Of a stretch of DNA of 64,000 bases, positions 17,317 through 31,900 are shown piece after piece; the stretch's first letter is position 1; the number at the start of each line of letters is the position of its first letter. The DNA is from Podarcis cretensis (Eukaryota). The notes under the pieces were generated by a model. It was not told the DNA's origin. It did no database searches and saw only the letters and a program-made list of their open reading frames with translations. Both the position numbers and the translations under genes were made by a program. The DNA is taken from NCBI GenBank assembly GCA_951804945.1, contig OX638155.1:28768001-28832000 (forward strand). The letters run 5' to 3'.

Positions 17317-17901
17317 GTAACCTCTTTTCATTGCCTCCTGGATTATGTGAAAATGAAAAGGGGAAAAAATACTATTTTGTAGCTTTCGTTTCCCAAGCAC
17401 TTTACATTCAGAAGCTGCTTTGAATTCATCTCTCATCGTTCAAGTGTTTCATTTCTTCTTCTTTTTTCTTTCTTTCTCATGGTCACAAAAGTTTAGATGA
17501 CCCTCCAAGGGAGGATCTGTTCCCTGGGTAGCAGGAACTCATTGTTCTGCAAGTTTTTGTAGAGTGGGACATCACTCAAAATCATGATGGCTCTATCAAG
17601 GCAAAGTTGATAGAGGAGCCCTACCATTAGGCAGGGTGAGGTAGCTGACCAATCTTATCCTGCAGCCTTGTGATAAAAAACTGAAACGTGTGAAAAACTG
17701 AAAAATTGTTTGCTCAATTGCTTTGGTTGTTGTTATTATTTTAGTATCTGCTCTGATCTACAAAAAACAAACCAAGCATTGCTGAATATGTCTTTCAGTC
17801 AGCTCATTTTCTTTCGTCCTTAAAGTCCAGAACTTACTGTGCTTCTAAACAAACGCCTTAAAAACACACATTTAATTACCTGCCTAGTAATGATTGTTTA
17901 A

Positions 17902-18250
17902 GGGACGCGGGTGGCGCTGTGGGTTAAACCACAGAGCCTAGGACTTGCCGATCAGAAGGTCGGCGGTTCGCATCCCCGTGACGGGGTGAGCGCCCATTGC
18001 TCGGTCCCTGCTCCTGCCAACCTAGCAGTTCAAAAGCACGTCAAAGTGCAAGTAGATAAATAGGTACCGCTCCGGCGGGAAGGTAAACGGTGTTTCCGTG
18101 CGCTGCTCTGGTTCACCAGAAGCGGCTTAGTCATGCTGGCCACATGACCTGGAAGCTGTATGCCGGCTCCCTCGGCCAATAAAGCGAGATGAGCGCAGCA
18201 ACCCCAGAGTTGGCCATGACTGGACCTAATGGTCAGGGGCCCCTTTACCT
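17902..18250 (+). mobile_element. Full-length Sauria-type SINE
   Basis: tRNA-related head with GGTTCG B-box-like motif, TTTACCT tail; 14-bp TSD taatgattgtttaa (17888-17901, 18251-18264). Confidence 0.92.
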
Positions 18251-18820
18251 TAATGATTGTTTAATGCTATTCCACTTGACAAGTAAGTAATAAGCCATGT
18301 ATACAAGTCCAGGCCCAAAGCGGCAAACTAAGCATTTGTCCAGGGTGCAAACCTGCTTCACTTATGCAATTGTCTTGGGAAGAGAGAATGAGCTGCTGTC
18401 TGAACTGTTCAGAGGAGATGCCCAGGGACGGCTTAGGAGTGCCTTGGTTTAAATCTATCCCACTGTCAGAGGAGCTTCCTTTAGCTGAGGTCACAGCAGT
18501 TGAGCTCCAACTCATTTGTAACGGGGAGGAAATAAAGAAGTGGCAGGCAGTAAAAACATCCTACTCAGTTATTTATTGTGCTATTGTTAACACTACTCAG
18601 TGGATCATTGAGAGCAGGCACAGAATTTTAATTTGTCTAAGGCAACAACAACGAAAAAGCCCTGTGCCACTCCTACACACACAACAGTGAATTGTTATGC
18701 TTTTAAGACAGTTAAGTTTCCTTTGCTGCAATGGCTTATTTAAGTACTGGCCTTGATTCAGCTGCATATGCTACATAAACAGCTGTTTGGTATACCTTTG
18801 CAACCGGTTATCTGACAGCA

Positions 18821-19117
18821 GGTACGTAGCCGTGTTAGTCTGCTGTAGTCAAAACAAAATAAAAAAATTCCTTCCAGTAGCACTTAGAGACCGACTACTG
18901 TACGTTTGTTATTGGTATGAAGTGGCATGAAGTAAAGTTACAGTTCTGTCATAAAACCCTGGACTGATATACACGTTGACTGAACATCTTTTACACCCAT
19001 GCTTTGAGAAAGAAGAAGTGGTATCTGAAGAATTGTGCATGCACACGAAAGCTCATACCAGTAACAAACTTAGTTGGTCTCTAAGATGCTACTGGAAGGA
19101 ATTTTTTTATTTTGTTT
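18821..19117 (+). mobile_element. Penelope-like element (pLTR with inverted partial pLTR)
   Basis: 16-bp TSD cggttatctgacagca (18805-18820, 19118-19133); ~70-bp inverted arms (about 18851-18920 vs 19053-19117); hammerhead core. Confidence 0.8.
19019..19060 (+). ncRNA. Minimal type I hammerhead ribozyme motif (Penelope-type)
   Basis: Stem I UGGUAU/AUACCA, core CUGAAGA (19025-19031), stem II UGUG-CAUG-CACA, GAAA (19047-19050), palindromic AGCU helix III, CUC cleavage triplet. Confidence 0.7.
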
Positions 19118-21225
19118 CGGTTATCTGACAGCACAGGTCAGTTTGCTTATTCAGTAACTATAGCAATAGACTCGTGCTCTCAGTATGGAAGCCTACACCT
19201 TTCTCAAAGCATTGGTGTAAAAGATGTTCAGTCAAGGTGTATATCAGTCCAGGGTTTTGTGACAGAACTGTAACTTGACTGACATCTTGTGTTGATGATG
19301 TCTGAGGCAGCACAGATTCCTTTTGAGTTAATTGCAAACTGCTGGTGAACTGATAATGCCATGGTACGATCACACATTTCAGGATATTAAGGCCTTGTGC
19401 CCATTCCAAAACCTTCAGCGGCCCTCTGTGGTTTTCATCAGAGGAATTTGAAAGTGACGCAAGTTTTTCTCCACCATTGGCCAGAGAACTTGGGAAAGAA
19501 GGAACAGCAGGAACAGGCGTCTAAAGTTGCATGCATCTTGCTTCTTTGTGTATACTGTCAAAGTACAGCATATGAAAGTATACTGAAGCAAGGCATTTCA
19601 TTATCTCTCCTAAGCCGACTCCTTTTATGTTAAGTGGGTTAATCAGTTTACAACAGCTGTATCCCTCAAAACAATCGCCTGCTAAAGCAAACCCTGAGAA
19701 AAGGAGAGTCGTAGAGATCTCTTTCAAAACAATGTTGATGTATCCTGGATATTAATTACATTGTAGAATCTGGTGAATGGGCTCATTAGGAGCAGTTCAT
19801 GTGTTTTGGAAGGATTAGCGCCAATAAATATAGCTTACCTACTTTCAGTGGAGAGAAGCTTTTAAAAATTTTAAGTCCAGCCCACGAAAATGCCAAATTT
19901 CACATTAGAACAAACCTTTCTTGTGGTTAAGTTTCGAGGGATGTTCGCTCCAAGGTGCTCCCCACATCTTGGGCTGGGGTGGGGGGAAGACTGGCACGTA
20001 TTTATATTTGTGTAAACTTTAAATATTTAGTTTTTATGCAAATTTAAACTTTTCCATTAACTGATATTGAAACTAAAGTTAAAAACTAGTTCAGAACCAA
20101 CCACATAAAAAATTATTAGGTACCAATACAGTACTCAATCCTGTCTTTTGCACAAATGAATTCCAGTGCTGAGTACAGGGGTCTGCAGTGCTTTGTTAAC
20201 AGTGCAAAATGTAAAAATGCTGATTTCTAGACTGATTGTTACCAACCCAATTTTTGCTTATTTCCAGCCTTTATTTTGCTTTCTGCTACAAATTGCTGCT
20301 TTTATATATATATAAGTTGTTTTCCTTGTTGCTGTTTTAATGTGGACGAGTGTTGGGTGTGGATGGTGGAAGTTGTTATCCAAAACATCTGGAAGGCTCC
20401 AGGTTGGCCAAAACTGTAAAATGTGGCCTGAAACTGCACCACACGATTCTCCTGATTGTTTTCCAGCTGCTAGCTTGGACTGGAAGTACAAGAAGCAGGC
20501 ATTTAACAATGCTTTCCACTTTTGGTCAAGCACAAGTGGCCTTGATTTGAAAGCCAATGGCTTGTCTAAAAACCTCTAGTGATGGGGAGTACATTCTTAT
20601 ACTAGCTAACCATCTTTTGCCAAGTTGATTAAATTTGTGATTCAAGTAGAGTCAATCTGAAGATCTGAAATTGAAATTCTTAAGATTTATTTATTTATTT
20701 TTTTAAAAAAGGAACACTCCCCAAGCTCTTACACTGTTCTCTTTTTAAAACAACTCCCAATCTCTTGTGGTTTCTAGGTTAGGTTTATTTTGAGGCAGAG
20801 GGACGCCAAAACACTGTGCCCCAGCTGGATTCTATGATCGCTTGATGTGCTTTTAGCACTGTACTTTTCCCTTTAAGTAAATACTGGATTTTTTTTTTTA
20901 AAGAAGTTTCCTTCGAGACCCTGAGGAATTGCAAACAACTTCAATAGGAAGATGGTATCTAGAAAGCTGCCTGTGTCCTCCTCTCTGCGGTCTGGTGGCA
21001 CTGAGTCAGTTAACAAAGGGCCTCTATATCTGCAGCCTTGCAGATTACAGGTGTCAAGAGGCTGCAACAAAATTTTGTAAGCATCCGACTAGTAATAATG
21101 AGGATGCTGGCACTATCACGACTTAGGCTGTGACAACTGAAGCACTGCACCCTATATGATGTAAACCTCTGTGGCCAGGTTGGTGCTGGCAAAAACCTTG
21201 TGGGTGTTCTTTTAATTTCAAATAG

Positions 21226-21480
<255 letters not shown>

Positions 21481-26762: not shown

Positions 26763-26885
26763 CTACAGTTCATCCTTTGCTTGCCCCAGGACAAAGTTGT
26801 GCAGTGTTTCAAGATCTCTGGCTCCGGTGTGCTCAGTGACTTTTTCCCCACCACGGAAAAGCATCAGTGTTGGGTAGCCACGAAC
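26763..26885 (-). CDS. TXNDC5: TXNDC5 exon 10 coding part ([40 protein letters not shown])
   Basis: tttgaag acceptor; KDEL ER-retention signal then TAG at 26765-26763; exon total 1248 nt = 415 aa + stop. Confidence 0.96.
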
Positions 26886-27400
26886 CTTCAAAAGGAGAGA
26901 AAAGAATGTAGGTGAAAAAGCAACTGCAATCCTGTATGTCCTGACTCAAAAGTAAAAGGCTCTTGCATATGGCCAGTTCATAGTGGGCATGGCACTGCTT
27001 GGAATCTCTTATTTTTTTGTGTGGTGCCCACATATCATCCTTGCCAACCTGTACTTCCCTCACCCCCTCCAGATTTCCTCTTTAGAAAAGCTGAGAACTT
27101 AAAACAATCTGTTATACATATTATGTCGCTGCTGGATGGAAGGGAGTTTCAGCAGGTGGCCCTCATGTTCATAACATGAGCAAATTAGCACAAGACCTGT
27201 AATAAGACAGAGTGAGTAGTTGGGGTTGCTTAATCTCCTGAGTGGAAGGTACGCTTATGCCAATTGTTCTGTAAATTACAATAACCTCTCTCTTCAAACA
27301 TTCTCCAACTTTAGCTTAAAGCACCTCAAGAACTGCTCGTATTGCTGAGGAGTATTAAACCGGGCTTTATTCTCTTCCTTCTGTTTTCAAGCTTCGCCAA

Positions 27401-27878
27401 AGGCCACTCTAGATATATACATTTAAACCACTATGATATCACTTCAAACCTTTAACGGCTTCCCCCAAAGAATTCTGGGAGGTGCTGAGAGTTGTTAGGA
27501 GACCCGTATTCCCCTGTGTGGCTTAACATTCAATCCCTATTCACAGAGAACTCTGGGAATTGTAGCTCTGTGAGGGGAATAGGGATCTCCTAACAGATCT
27601 CAGCCCCTTAAATAAAGTGCAGCTCCCAGAATTCTTTGGGGGAAGCCGTTAAGGTTTAAAGTGTTATCCTACTGGTTTACACTGGCAGCAACTCCTGGGG
27701 CCCGGAGACCCACAAAAAAATTATTATGGGTACTCGGCACCTGGCCTCACGGGCGGTGGTAGAAGTCGCATCTTGAGGCCCCGGGGGGCCTCCCAGGCCC
27801 AGACGCTGCTGAGCACCCATAATCTGGGGCCTAATTCAGTGCCAGTGCTGGTTTAAATGTGTAGTGTGCATGTGGCCC
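27401..27878. mobile_element. Long-palindrome MITE (PIF/Harbinger-like termini) with nested hAT MITE
   Basis: Inverted arms aaacctttaacggcttcccccaaagaattctgggag / ctcccagaattctttgggggaagccgttaaggttt; GGCC termini. Confidence 0.65.
27680..27847. mobile_element. hAT-type MITE
   Basis: TIR CACTGGCA/TGCCAGTG; perfect 8-bp TSD ctggttta (27672-27679, 27848-27855). Confidence 0.85.
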
Positions 27879-28391
27879 AAGAGTCTCCTCCCTCTTCAGA
27901 CAGAAGGAAGACCCTGGTGCATGGAGGTGTCAGAGATTTGTGAAAAGAAAAAAGCAGCAAGAGGCGGCAGGTATCTCCATACAGCAGGAAGGCTCCCCCT
28001 TCCTTGCTGCTTCCTGCTTCCCTTCCCACAAACCTCTCATCAGGACTGATTTGATCGCCCCCCCCCCTCAGCAGCACAACTGGATTGCAAGGTGCTTTAA
28101 GTTGAAGTTAAACAATAGCTGGAGAGAGCCAGGAGAGAGGAAATATCTTTAACATACAGAGAACGCATGCAACTCCCCCAGCCCTGCCAGAAAAGTGGTC
28201 CCCATCACTTTGTAGTTTAATTAGGAAAAGGTTTCTGGCCAAGCACGGTCAAAATGAAAGGTATTCAAGGAGCTTGGTCATGATCAAGGCTACACTGAGA
28301 ACTCTGTATGTGCAGTGGGGCTTTGGAGATTACCTCCTCCGTTTTCAAAGTGTCCCCACAGCGTCCCAAAAGCCATGCCCTAAATTCAGTA

Positions 28392-28572
28392 CAGTAGTAC
28401 CTCCGGTTACGTAACCCTCTGGTTACGTAAACTTCGGGATGCGAAAGCGGCAATCCCGGAAGTATTTGACCGGGTTTTGCTTCATGCGCAGCAGCAGTCC
28501 TCAGGTTGCGGAAACCTTGGGATCCGACCGTACCTCCGGAACGGATCCTGTCTGCAACCGGAGGTACCACTG
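28392..28572. mobile_element. MITE family A-related variant
   Basis: TIR CAGTAGTACCTCCGGTT / AACCGGAGGTACCACTG, TA TSD; different interior. Confidence 0.8.
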
Positions 28573-28828
28573 TAGTTTCAGAACCACATCTGACCACACA
28601 TAGTGCGGTTAAGCAGGTACAACGAGCACATTATGTAGAAACTCCTCAGCTTTAGCTCATGTCTTTTTACACAAGCCATAGTGAAAAGATTCTGTGCACA
28701 TTCTTTCCTAGTTACTTTGGAGACACTAGTTACTTTGGAGAGTTAACTGTAAACCAAGCAGCCACACACTTGCAATTTGAACAATTAAGCACAAACACAG
28801 TGTAAAGTCATCTAGCTTCCATACTTAC

Positions 28829-28958
28829 GGAAAATCTATTGCAGACATTGCGTTCCATGGTGCAGTCGACTTCAGCTATCTTGACGTCTACTGGTCCTGG
28901 AAAGTTCTTTTTTGAGAGATTCTCCCAAGTGGGAGCCAGGTTTTTACAATGACCGCAC
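28829..28958 (-). CDS. TXNDC5: TXNDC5 exon 9 ([43 protein letters not shown])
   Basis: ccccag acceptor, gtaagt donor; 130 nt; third CGHC. Confidence 0.96.
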
Positions 28959-31900
28959 CTGGGGGGAGGGATTAGCATGAAAGCATATATCATTTTTTAA
29001 ATAAATAAAAAATCCCCATGTTGCTTTCAATATATAACAGAGGTTTGTTTCTTTTAAGTAACGTTTTTAAAGTATAAAACAATACTTTTCAAGCCAGAAT
29101 CTCAAATAAAAAGCACAAATTAAGAAAAATCCATCCTACCGCATGAGACACTGGATCATTTTCAATAGCCATACAACACCAAAAAACTTTGAGTTGTATC
29201 TACTTCAACCATTCTTAGGCAGCACTAGATCATCCAAAAATTACAAATAACACTTTGTCCCACATTTGATGAGGCAAGGGTCGGCAAAAGGTCAGGAAGA
29301 GTCCCTGCCCCCTCATTCCTTAGGAGGGTGCAGATCTCCTTGAAGAGCAGCACGAGACTCTACTGCTTTCCAAGTGCTTTGTGAAAGGGACGGAGACAGC
29401 AGTAAACTTAATTTTGGCTACCAATTTAAAGGAGGAGGGGGGAAAAACCCCACTGATAATTCATCTTTTTCTGCTGTGATGTAAATGTGCCCTCCTCTAA
29501 CAACCTAGGTTTCCTTAAAGTTGGAGGTGATGTCTCATAGTCATCAAATTAGGAAATAACGTACCATTTGAGCAAACAATTCTGAAGCCACAGCCCTAAA
29601 CCCACATATTCCTAAGTAGGTTCTTGCTGAAATCAGTGAAGCAAAATGTCCTGACACCACAGCCCTCTAGCTTACCTAAAACTCAGAAAGCAATAAAGGA
29701 AGGTTTCCACCTCTGACATGTTGTTTATACAACACCGAGGCTAAAATTTAAAATATGCTACTATCCATCATTTCTCCCGCTAGCTCAGAAAAGGTGGTGG
29801 TGTTTTTTAGAGAAGGAGTAGGAGTGGCTTTGTTATTCTAGAAGTAGGTCTATTTCAAAATCACAACTCTAGCACAGCTAGTGCCCCAACCCTTTAAGTT
29901 ACCTCGCCAGAAAAACCTAATATTCATTCCTCTGCTGCTGGTTCGTTCTTGTTGTAACAGATTCATAAATTTAAAAATTGCCTCCATAAACCAAAGAGGG
30001 TCCAAATATTGTGAGGTTATATATGAGGAAGTGGGTTAGCGGTTTCCTCATTTCCTCCCTGCATCCCATAACTTACCTGGCAAGCAACAGAATTATCTTA
30101 AGATGCAGCAAAGTAACCAGGCAAGTACTGGGATGGTTAATGTTTTCTGCCAATCCAAATGCCCATCTAATGTTCCAGTCACATTTGCACAGGGGGCAGA
30201 TGCAGGACTGTGCTTTGAAACAGACCTGCTTCCCGTGGAACACCCAGTCTGTGTTATGCAACAACATGGCATGCAATCCAGTCACAAGCGAAGCACTTTG
30301 ATGCTCAACTGATGCTCCACTGCAAAGAGTCTAAACACTTACTAAATTGTGGCCACAGCATGTCCACAGTAAGCTGCACTGGAATAAACCTGCAAACCAA
30401 CTCGGTGCATGAATATACTATCCCTGTTATTATAAAGTAGATGTTAGCAAACTGGCAGCCTTCAAGCTGAAATCAGCCTATGCACGTAAATCAATTTTTG
30501 ATCTATCACTGCTGTGACATTAAGTTCCGCACTACTTTCCCATTCAGTAGCTGATTCAAGGCACTACTTATAAAAATATTAAAAACCTGCTTCCTGCCTT
30601 GGGAAACAAAAGGAATCATTTTTAAGGTCTCTTACTATATACAGGGTGTGTATTAAGAGGGCTACTGACCATATGTACTGAAAACTATTAAGATGAGATG
30701 GGCTTTTTACTTGTCGTTCAGTTTAATGTTAATATTTACTTAAAACAAAGTAAAGGGCAAAAGGAGACCTCAGAGAACTAGCGGTTGCTTAGCCAAACAT
30801 AAAACAGATGACATGCAAGAGAAAAAGGTCAATTTGTATACAATGAACTATAATTGTGTACACAATTTAGCTAGCCAGGAATAGGCTCCTGGCTATTTGT
30901 GTAGTAAACATTAGCCTGAACTGAAGCTTTTCATGGAAACAACTTGTTGCCAAATGAGAGTGGATTTGGTCAGGTGGCATTTAGAATATCTTTAACACAG
31001 CCCTCACTTTTGGATATTTAGCATCCTTGTGGCATGGCTCTTTTTAGAATGAAGTCAGGAGAGAATGGAAGCTATATTTGGAATGCAGCTCTGCTCTAAG
31101 ATTTGCAGAAGAGCTCAGTGAATTCTACAGGTATCTCCTCTCTTTCACATGTATCCTTCTCACCTGTAAATAGTTAAGACCAGACCAGTTTCACCTAATG
31201 CCATTCATCTAAGTGCCACCTGCTAAGTGGCAGGCTTGGTGGGTGAATTGCATAGGGACAACCTACGTGTCATATTGCTAACAACTTTCCCAAACTCCAG
31301 GTTTCCCTACTATCAGCAATAGCATAGAATAAGAAGACGGGAAGTCTCCAGGGGCCTGGGATGCCAGCAAAGACACCACAGAACAGTATGGTGGAGCTAG
31401 CACTGCATGAGATCAAGAACCGAACCACTTCCGTAGTTAAATAAATTTTCACAACCATGCTTGGCCATCAAGTCACTAGGTGGTCTTCAGCCAGTCTCTG
31501 GGCCGATCCACACACCATATTTATCATGCAATGACTACAGCAGCACACATCTGTCAGTAAGTCACCACCGATCTAACAGAACTTTTGCCTGGCAATTTTG
31601 TTTGCTGTGATGTGAGTGGAGAAGTGGGGTATAACATTAACAACTGAACTTTAGTCCATCAGACAGAACAAGTTGGTTCTTGACTGTGTCATTCTTAGAC
31701 TGGGTGAAATCAGTTGAGGAGCCAACTCAGTGTTTTACAATATAAGCAATTCATACTTTCAGTATAATGAAACTCTGCGAAACTGACTTACACATATGTG
31801 AACCAGACCTCAACCTCATAGTACCGATTGTGTACCTATGGCAATTAAATCAGATCTGATACCCCTCCCCCAAATAAAACATGCTTAAACCTCTGGGGTT

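What the first reader, a model, noticed from the sequence alone, without database searches (positions are those of the whole stretch)
18805..19280. Penelope-like insertion has captured an inverted copy of its own downstream flank
Seen: between the two inverted pLTR arms, 18935-19012 is the reverse complement of 19199-19276 (78 nt, 3 mismatches). That source lies 66 nt beyond the right 16-bp TSD. Inference: the RT or repair polymerase switched template onto target-site DNA during integration, a preserved snapshot of the poorly understood Penelope insertion mechanism. The result is two interleaved inverted repeats (pLTR arms; captured segment vs flank) bracketing the hammerhead. The pLTR pairing uses the 3' strand of stem I, so alternative folds could mask or expose the ribozyme.
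Basis: partly seen in the sequence, partly recalled or inferred. Interest (0 to 1): 0.7.

Follow-up and report, generated by a model that had tools for sequence, protein, structure and literature searches.

The report
Flank copy seals Penelope mirror insertion
Two back-to-back end pieces of a Penelope-type jumping gene in a BMP6-like intron are bridged by a flipped 78-letter copy of DNA lying just downstream, a real but rare scar that was likely made while the insertion was being sealed, of a kind already known from human jumping genes and with no sign of a function.

Summary
18935-19012 is the reverse complement of 19199-19276 (75 of 78), unique in the genome, between head-to-head pLTR arms bounded by a 16-bp TSD, in an intron of a BMP6-like gene. 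Contigs of other runs support both filler junctions. The family is a Neptune-type Penelope-like element. None of 322 other loci, nor 20 long pairs, has such a filler, so this is a rare by-product.

The survey gives the likely setting. 116 of 119 TSD-bounded mirror insertions have one tailed and one tail-less arm, matching the two published RT start sites. 5' ends pile up 33 nt behind a TATA-like box, often with an extra G (likely the cap). The arms are therefore likely two first-strand cDNAs primed from opposite nicks, and the filler likely snap-back synthesis made while joining them. Copying from host pre-mRNA or a later repair is not excluded; no empty site was seen.

The ribozyme-switch idea is unsupported: this hammerhead has lost a conserved G and has no partner. 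Flank-templated insertions are known for L1 and R2. This scan noted four similar Penelope cases in other genomes (unchecked).

The parts
18805..18820 (+). left copy of the 16-bp target-site duplication
   Evidence: D6, 16 of 16; family TSDs peak at 12-13 nt, range 9-20
18821..18920 (-). left pLTR arm, with tail, family positions about 129 to 32; lacks the hammerhead core
18893..18903 (.). cluster of private changes in the left arm (two substitutions and a short insertion); possibly a second small templated patch
   Evidence: the exact 23-mer around it occurs once in the genome
18921..18934 (+). 14-nt left linker; either stutter copies of the right junction or a direct copy of left-flank 18537-18554
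   Evidence: (D3): 16 of 18 with its edges, reached by 0 of 322 control flanks; 12 of 14 for the bare linker, reached by 3 of 322
18935..19012 (-). captured filler: inverted copy of 19199-19276
19013..19020 (+). right linker: 7 nt repeating element positions 7-13, plus an extra G at position -1 (likely copied from the RNA cap)
   Evidence: same junction in 3 of 323 loci, this one included; G at -1 in 64 of 123 short arms
19021..19117 (+). right pLTR arm, tail-less, family positions 0 to about 97
19020..19059 (+). minimal hammerhead motif (stem I 19020-24/19055-59, predicted cut after 19054), with T at 19033 in place of the conserved G
   Evidence: read from the sequence; no Rfam match; position numbering recalled
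19118..19133 (+). right copy of the target-site duplication
19199..19276 (+). source of the filler, single-copy intron DNA, contiguous with the flank in relatives B and D
18537..18554 (+). possible second donor (left flank) of the left linker
17317..21370 (+). host intron of a BMP6-like gene
   Evidence: TGF-beta propeptide and mature-domain exons on +, splice signals read, best PDB match BMP6 E 8.5e-30 against BMP7 1.3e-27

Best explanation
This is a mirror-image Penelope-like insertion whose central joint holds a flipped copy of the downstream flank, likely made by snap-back DNA synthesis while two separately primed cDNA ends were being joined. Steps: (1, inferred) the enzyme nicks both strands 16 nt apart, giving the TSD (shown). 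(2, inferred) Each 3' end primes reverse transcription, one at the tail start site (left arm), one about 35 nt further in (right arm). (3, inferred) The right cDNA runs to the capped RNA 5' end, adds a C opposite the cap and re-primes briefly on the element (19013-19020); the left cDNA stops at position 32. (4, inferred) The two single-stranded 3' ends lack good homology. One anneals by 1-4 nt of microhomology to the resected right flank and copies 78 nt; the simplest route is the bottom strand folding back on itself. (5, inferred) After further short switches (linker 18921-18934) the ends join and gaps are filled, leaving flank and TSD intact (shown). The polymerase may be host Pol theta or the element's own RT. 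The product is an inert scar.
For: Anatomy. One tailed plus one tail-less arm in 116 of 119 TSD-bounded mirror insertions (49% expected from single arms, p about 1e-31) and in 20 of 20 hand-picked long pairs whose two ends were in view (read by eye). This matches the two RT start sites and two-strand nicking of the anole element (PMC11167929). 119 of 605 arm pieces start at position 0, 33 nt behind a TATA-like box, and 64 of 123 short arms have an extra G (p about 1e-10), the cap signature described for L1 (PMC11702581). Short element-derived stutters at central joints are common, so this joint is a site of repeated template switching. The right junction keeps its primary features. Relative D carries the filler's allele at 19236, so by parsimony the copy predates the A/B split, and the insertion is shared by A, B and D. 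Three differences in 78 fit the family's 3.3% mean divergence per copy. Reverse-complement inserts are the snap-back signature of Pol theta (PMC5068794) and of R2 cDNA ends priming on nearby rDNA (PMC11371274).
Against: Timing is not fixed: 3 of 78 fits a later event about equally well (my Poisson estimate: about 4.7 expected if as old as the arms, about 1.6 if near the A/B split). The filler had zero depth in B and D contigs; contigs cannot show absence, but presence there is not shown either. No empty site was seen. Microhomology at the snap-back start is only 1 nt (3 with slippage), while the other end has 4 nt, which suits synthesis in the opposite direction. The host transcript has the polarity to serve as template. 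Twin priming is inferred from arm pairing; the literature also proposes self-priming (PMC3846280) or endonuclease resolution of an intermediate (PMC8557442) for arms and tail. One case in 323 loci cannot show a rule.
Confidence: 0.55

Rival explanations
1. Later repair: an ordinary mirror insertion formed a hairpin or cruciform, broke at its centre, and end-joining then patched the break with an inverted flank copy.
For: The left arm is unusually short at its 5' end (position 32; most shorter arms start at 10-23) and carries a private cluster of changes. Filler not covered in B and D contigs. Divergence does not exclude it.
Against: The right arm keeps position 0, the extra G and the element stutter, also seen at other copies. 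The filler shares D's allele at 19236, so it is not recent. 118 other TSD-bounded mirror insertions of similar age show no such patch.
Confidence: 0.22
2. The element's RT, extending the left-arm cDNA, jumped onto the nascent BMP6-like pre-mRNA (or a displaced top strand), copied 19276 to 19199 and was then joined to the right-arm cDNA.
For: The host gene is on the + strand, so its RNA has the right polarity. The nascent end would pair by 4 nt with 19273-19276. L1 RT switches between RNAs (PMC11702581). One other copy holds a 71-nt piece of another repeat inside its TSD (L310). Rotifer PLEs capture host sequence (PMC3846280).
Against: An RNA donor need not lie within 150 nt of the site; closeness is expected of resected DNA. 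No germ-line expression data were seen. Joining at the far end has only 1 nt of homology.
Confidence: 0.15
3. The two crossing inverted repeats form an RNA switch that masks or exposes the hammerhead and affects the host intron.
For: The arms do cover the 3' strand of stem I; both long helices are predicted stable (-209.7 and -185.7 kcal/mol) and a hammerhead-shaped fold costs only 3.9 kcal/mol inside the filler-source loop.
Against: T at 19033 replaces the G kept in 198 of 204 copies. Minimal PLE hammerheads need a dimer partner and cleave poorly (PMC4209133) or need the element protein (PMC11167929). Source and arms accumulate changes at neutral-looking rates. Single locus.
Confidence: 0.03
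4. Assembly artefact, or part of the element or of a common repeat.
For: No single record spans the whole stretch; mirror insertions are hard to assemble (PMC8557442).
Against: Only 2 genome matches; no hit to a full-length copy; 3 differences between the copies; junction signatures in runs X1 and X4.
Confidence: 0.02

Closest known systems
Templated insertions in somatic L1 insertions (bioRxiv 10.1101/2024.08.27.596794; passages read)
   Same: Non-element genomic DNA under 250 bp copied into the insertion during integration; rare (22 instances, about 3,600 insertions classified), like 1 in 323 here.
   Different: There the template typically lies within 15 bp of the site; here 66-143 nt away, inverted, and placed between two mirror arms of a Penelope-like element in the germ line.
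Snap-back 5' junctions of R2-protein insertions (PMC11371274; passages read)
   Same: The cDNA 3' end primes extra DNA-templated synthesis on itself or, less often, on nearby target DNA before the junction forms.
   Different: Engineered single-primed system at rDNA; no second cDNA, no tail, no pLTR.
Pol theta-mediated end joining with reverse-complement flank inserts (PMC5068794; passages read)
   Same: Inverted copy of same-side flank, 1-nt priming, repeated template switching with short duplications.
   Different: Those inserts are mostly short and within about 20 nt of a deletion junction; here 78 nt, no deletion, TSD kept.
Inverted-pLTR insertions with tail in EN+ PLEs, Neptune clade (PMC8557442 passages; PMC3846280 passages and section 9; PMC11167929 parts 1-2 of 4)
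   Same: Head-to-head pLTRs, tail on one arm, TSD, hammerhead in the pLTR, RT plus C-terminal GIY-YIG, Cys linker; host DNA captured between pLTRs has been reported in rotifers.
   Different: The passages I read do not describe a capture from the insertion's own flank, and explain inverted arms by self-priming or endonuclease resolution, not twin priming.

Membership tests
EN+ Penelope-like element (Neptune/Nematis type) | single ORF with RT and C-terminal GIY-YIG in the family | tested here: met
   927-aa ORF in L356, RVT_1 E 2.8e-12 and GIY-YIG E 3.2e-5; this locus itself holds only pLTR ends
EN+ Penelope-like element (Neptune/Nematis type) | CX2-5CxxC linker between RT and endonuclease | tested here: met
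   C-X4-C-XX-C read in the ORF; definition from PMC8557442
EN+ Penelope-like element (Neptune/Nematis type) | RT phylogeny places it in Neptune rather than Nematis | not tested
   no tree built; 'Neptune-type' rests on the linker only
EN+ Penelope-like element (Neptune/Nematis type) | inverted pLTRs, 30-40 bp tail on one arm, TSD | tested here: met
Minimal type I hammerhead of PLEs | core motifs with stems I and II and no stable stem III | tested here: met
   read at 19020-19059; stems checked; below any Rfam threshold
Minimal type I hammerhead of PLEs | intact G-C pair closing stem II next to the core | tested here: not met
   T at 19033; G in 198 of 204 matched copies; importance of this pair is recalled
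Minimal type I hammerhead of PLEs | self-cleavage | not testable with these tools
   needs an in vitro assay
Flank-templated insertion at a retrotransposon junction | unique host segment inside the TSD with its donor near the site | tested here: met
Flank-templated insertion at a retrotransposon junction | formed during integration; empty site has one TSD copy and only the donor | tested here: inconclusive
   all 4 runs laid carry the insertion; allele sharing dates the copy before the A/B split only
Pol theta-mediated end joining | microhomology and iterative templated patches at the joint | tested here: inconclusive
   1-nt and 4-nt overlaps, stutters on both sides; an RT could leave the same marks
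Pol theta-mediated end joining | dependence on POLQ | not testable with these tools
   needs a knockout assay

The most novel reading that the evidence does not exclude
Penelope-like elements insert by obligatory paired priming: a dimeric enzyme starts one cDNA at each of its two RT start sites from opposite nicks, runs to the capped 5' end just behind the pLTR promoter, and the two 3' ends are then fused; when fusion stalls, the element's own RT copies the nearest free template, flank DNA or host pre-mRNA, making flipped local copies a recurring signature of Penelope integration across animals.
Probability: 0.3. Interest if true: 0.65.

Novelty: new member of a known kind. Interest (0 to 1): 0.36.

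Why it matters
The steps after priming in Penelope integration are stated to be unvalidated (PMC11167929). The filler shows that the mirror joint can be a place of open DNA ends and templated synthesis, not a simple hairpin copy. The family counts gathered here (one tailed plus one tail-less arm in 116 of 119; an extra G at a fixed 5' end) give testable predictions for the existing in vitro system. The locus itself is most likely a neutral scar, though it adds a predicted 78-bp RNA helix to a BMP6-like intron.

Tried and rejected
Rfam: no match at gathering level in the window; 3 chance hits at E 5-9 near the locus. No RNA holder was listed for the stretch, which says nothing on expression. 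Zero filler depth in runs X5 and X7 was not taken as absence. The X4 contig joining the source to 19013 could be an inversion allele between the repeats; I read it as a graph join through shared sequence.

Other candidates for flank capture, of 93 fillers of 12 nt or more: L006 is a 441-bp tandem triplication of arm plus flank; L060 a 19-nt direct match next to the element, TSD-like; L206 a SINE; L342 a 16-nt direct match 425 nt away without TSD. L108 and L280 are repeats found in many loci; L017's filler is element ORF; L310's is another repeat family. Local repeats are not enriched at 5' ends: 8 loci among 605 points against 20 of 634 control points.

The idea that the two arms came from different source copies was dropped: the two right-arm variants are not linked, and paired arms share more derived bases than shuffled pairs (28 against a mean of 11, maximum 21). 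Truncation at the hammerhead cut site is not a family pattern (5 of 605 5' ends at 31-34, biased by my search patterns). Fold-back on stem I explains at most 13 of 64 extra Gs.

Full report
Observation. The window is G000:C7:28768001-28832000 of a 1.5-Gb genome. The repeat finder and a direct comparison confirm the finding: 18931-19012 matches the reverse complement of 19199-19280 at 78 of 82 positions, the core 18935-19012 / 19199-19276 at 75 of 78. A 16-bp repeat bounds the insertion (18805-18820, 19118-19133) and inverted arms lie at 18852-18920 and 19053-19117. A search of the genome with the right flank returned 2 matches, source and filler, and the filler has no hit to a full-length family copy. 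In one search (4 of 24 listed runs laid), run X1's contigs break with a 30-nt overlap at 19247-19276, where filler and source part ways, and X4 has a contig joining the segment to 19013. Both are of organism A and one study, possibly the assembly's own, and no record spans the whole stretch.

Setting. Pfam hits on 150 of 161 frames between 6 and 34 kb show TGF-beta propeptide and mature-domain exons on the + strand and thioredoxin-domain exons on the - strand beyond them. The last exon matches BMP6 best. The insertion lies in the intron of about 17317-21370, so the pre-mRNA has + polarity. That the host is a lizard is my recollection from the neighbouring SINE, not a tool result.

The family. 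One exact 31-mer occurs 900 times. A copy with a 927-aa ORF has RT and GIY-YIG domains and a C-X4-C-XX-C linker, the Neptune/Nematis mark in PMC8557442; no tree was built. I gathered 342 loci, 323 distinct. They were chosen by similarity to this locus or by five exact patterns and listed in contig order, so they are not a random sample and at least one arm must cover positions 26-57. Of these, 179 are head-to-head (119 with a TSD), 143 single-armed (72 with a TSD) and 1 tail-to-tail.

Family pattern. 116 of the 119 TSD-bounded mirror insertions have one arm ending near position 133 (tail) and one near 97; 3 have two tail-less arms. From single arms (63 of 143 tailed) 49% would be expected. Twenty hand-picked long pairs with both ends in view show the same. 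PMC11167929 (parts 1-2 of 4 read) reports that the anole enzyme nicks and extends both strands, is predicted to be a dimer, and starts at two sites separated by the tail. I infer that the arms are two first-strand cDNAs, one from each nick. 119 of 605 arm pieces start at position 0, 33 nt behind a TATA-like box, and 64 of 123 short arms have G where long copies have T at -1. For L1 such a G is read as the cap (PMC11702581, passages). I infer that position 0 is the RNA start. This locus fits: left arm tailed and stopped at 32, right arm tail-less, complete, with the extra G.

How rare the capture is. Of 93 non-element fillers of 12 nt or more, only this one is a unique, inverted copy of its own flank within 800 nt. 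A TSD-independent screen and a pass with all flank held, up to about 1.4 kb, added none; nor did the long pairs. That is 0 of 322 other loci, and 0 of 118 other TSD-bounded mirror insertions. Central joints were flush in 60, held 1-11 nt in 29, 12-49 nt in 13 and 50 nt or more in 17 of the 119; the short ones I inspected are element stutters and the long ones mostly nested repeats.

Junction anatomy. On the right, 19013-19019 repeats element positions 7-13 ahead of the extra G; the same junction is in 3 of 323 loci. It overlaps the filler by 1 nt. On the left, the 14-nt linker can be read as stutter copies of that junction, or as a direct copy of left-flank 18537-18554: 16 of 18 with its edges (0 of 322 control flank pairs reach 16), 12 of 14 for the linker alone (3 of 322). 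The edges were chosen after seeing the match, so the second figure is the fairer one. The linker's end overlaps the source by 4 nt. Which strand was extended cannot be told. Extension of the bottom strand uses its own resected flank (snap-back); extension of the top strand needs the top strand or the + sense pre-mRNA.

Age. Contigs run from flank into an arm in organisms A and B (both sides) and D (right side), so the insertion is shared; flanks differ from the window at 15 of 1015 (B) and 23 of 962 (D) positions. All 4 runs carry the filler's base at 19259, and D carries it at 19236. By parsimony the copy was made before the A/B split, and at least two of the three mismatches arose in the source. 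Arms differ from the family majority at 3 of 99 and 6 of 97 positions; the family mean is 3.3% outside CpG. Three differences in 78 fit both co-integration and a later event. No empty site was seen.

Ribozyme. A minimal hammerhead lies at 19020-19059. The predicted fold of 18800-19300 pairs filler with source (-209.7 kcal/mol, z -15.8; probability 0.999). Forcing the arms gives -185.7, forcing the hammerhead -205.8, and stem I has probability about 0.02. But 19033 is T where 198 of 204 copies have G, the left arm has no core to act as partner, and such ribozymes cleave poorly alone (PMC4209133, part 1 of 4 read) or need the element protein (PMC11167929). There is no support for a regulated ribozyme.

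Comparison with what is known. Flank-templated insertions are described for L1 (22 cases, under 250 bp, typically within 15 bp; bioRxiv 2024.08.27.596794, passages), snap-back onto nearby target DNA for R2 protein (PMC11371274, passages), and inverted flank inserts for Pol theta (PMC5068794, passages). Host DNA between pLTRs is described in rotifers (PMC3846280, passages and section 9). Searches listed no paper on capture of the own flank, twin priming or a cap G in PLEs, judged from listings; the library lacks most subscription papers, Arkhipova 2006 was not seen, and no supplements were read. Tail on one arm only is already in print; the counts and the twin-priming reading are mine. Nothing was noted near this place before. 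One search lists four notes on other genomes with local DNA between Penelope arms, three described as inverted, with donors up to 1.5 kb away; I did not check them. They suggest recurrence and prompted the wider pass.

Verdict. A real, old, rare junction scar of a known kind, most likely made during integration (about 0.70 for the two co-integration routes together, 0.22 for later repair). Interest 0.36, carried more by the family-level pattern than by the locus.

Noticed in passing
323 family loci: 5' ends pile up at one base 33 nt behind a TATA-like box, coinciding with the start of hammerhead stem I, and about half of the short arms carry an extra G; reads as RNA start plus cap, so the short copies would be complete cDNAs of the first 100-135 nt.
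   Followed up: partly
119 TSD-bounded mirror insertions and L356-L375: Nearly every mirror insertion has exactly one tailed and one tail-less arm (116 of 119; 20 of 20).
   Followed up: yes
L003, L008, L029, L220, L274, L371 central or 5' joints: Short repeated copies of the element's first 10-20 nt, up to several rounds, as if the enzyme re-primes at the RNA 5' end; of note given the kinship of these RTs with telomerase.
   Followed up: no
family positions 10-23: The shorter arm of mirror pairs most often starts inside the palindromic stem II of the hammerhead (peaks at 12 and 17), where the two cDNA ends could anneal.
   Followed up: no
window 18893-18903: Private cluster of changes in the left arm, partly complementary to the arm's own tail; possibly a second fold-back patch. 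Unique in the genome.
   Followed up: partly
window 17902-18250: A SINE (Sauria-like, name recalled) with a 14-bp TSD at 17888-17901 / 18251-18264, 550 nt left of the insertion.
   Followed up: no
L030, L037, L049, L051, L118, L145, L169 and others: SINE copies are often nested inside pLTR arms, several near positions 58-63, suggesting a preferred target.
   Followed up: no
L006:540-1594: Near-perfect 441-bp tandem triplication of flank plus one arm; recent amplification or assembly error.
   Followed up: partly
L310:1558-1628: 71-nt piece of another repeat family between the element 5' end and the TSD; switch to another RNA or nested insertion.
   Followed up: partly
L356:1170-7400 and one search list: The family has intact ORFs (927 and 925 aa frames) and arms 99.9% alike, so it was active recently.
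   Followed up: partly
window 19013-19198, run X4: One contig has the junction that an inversion between filler and source would give; more likely a graph join.
   Followed up: no
window 26766-28996 (-) and about 50-52.5 kb: Thioredoxin-domain exons on the minus strand converge on the BMP6-like gene (TXNDC5 by recalled synteny); a GC-rich island lies at 50-52 kb.
   Followed up: no
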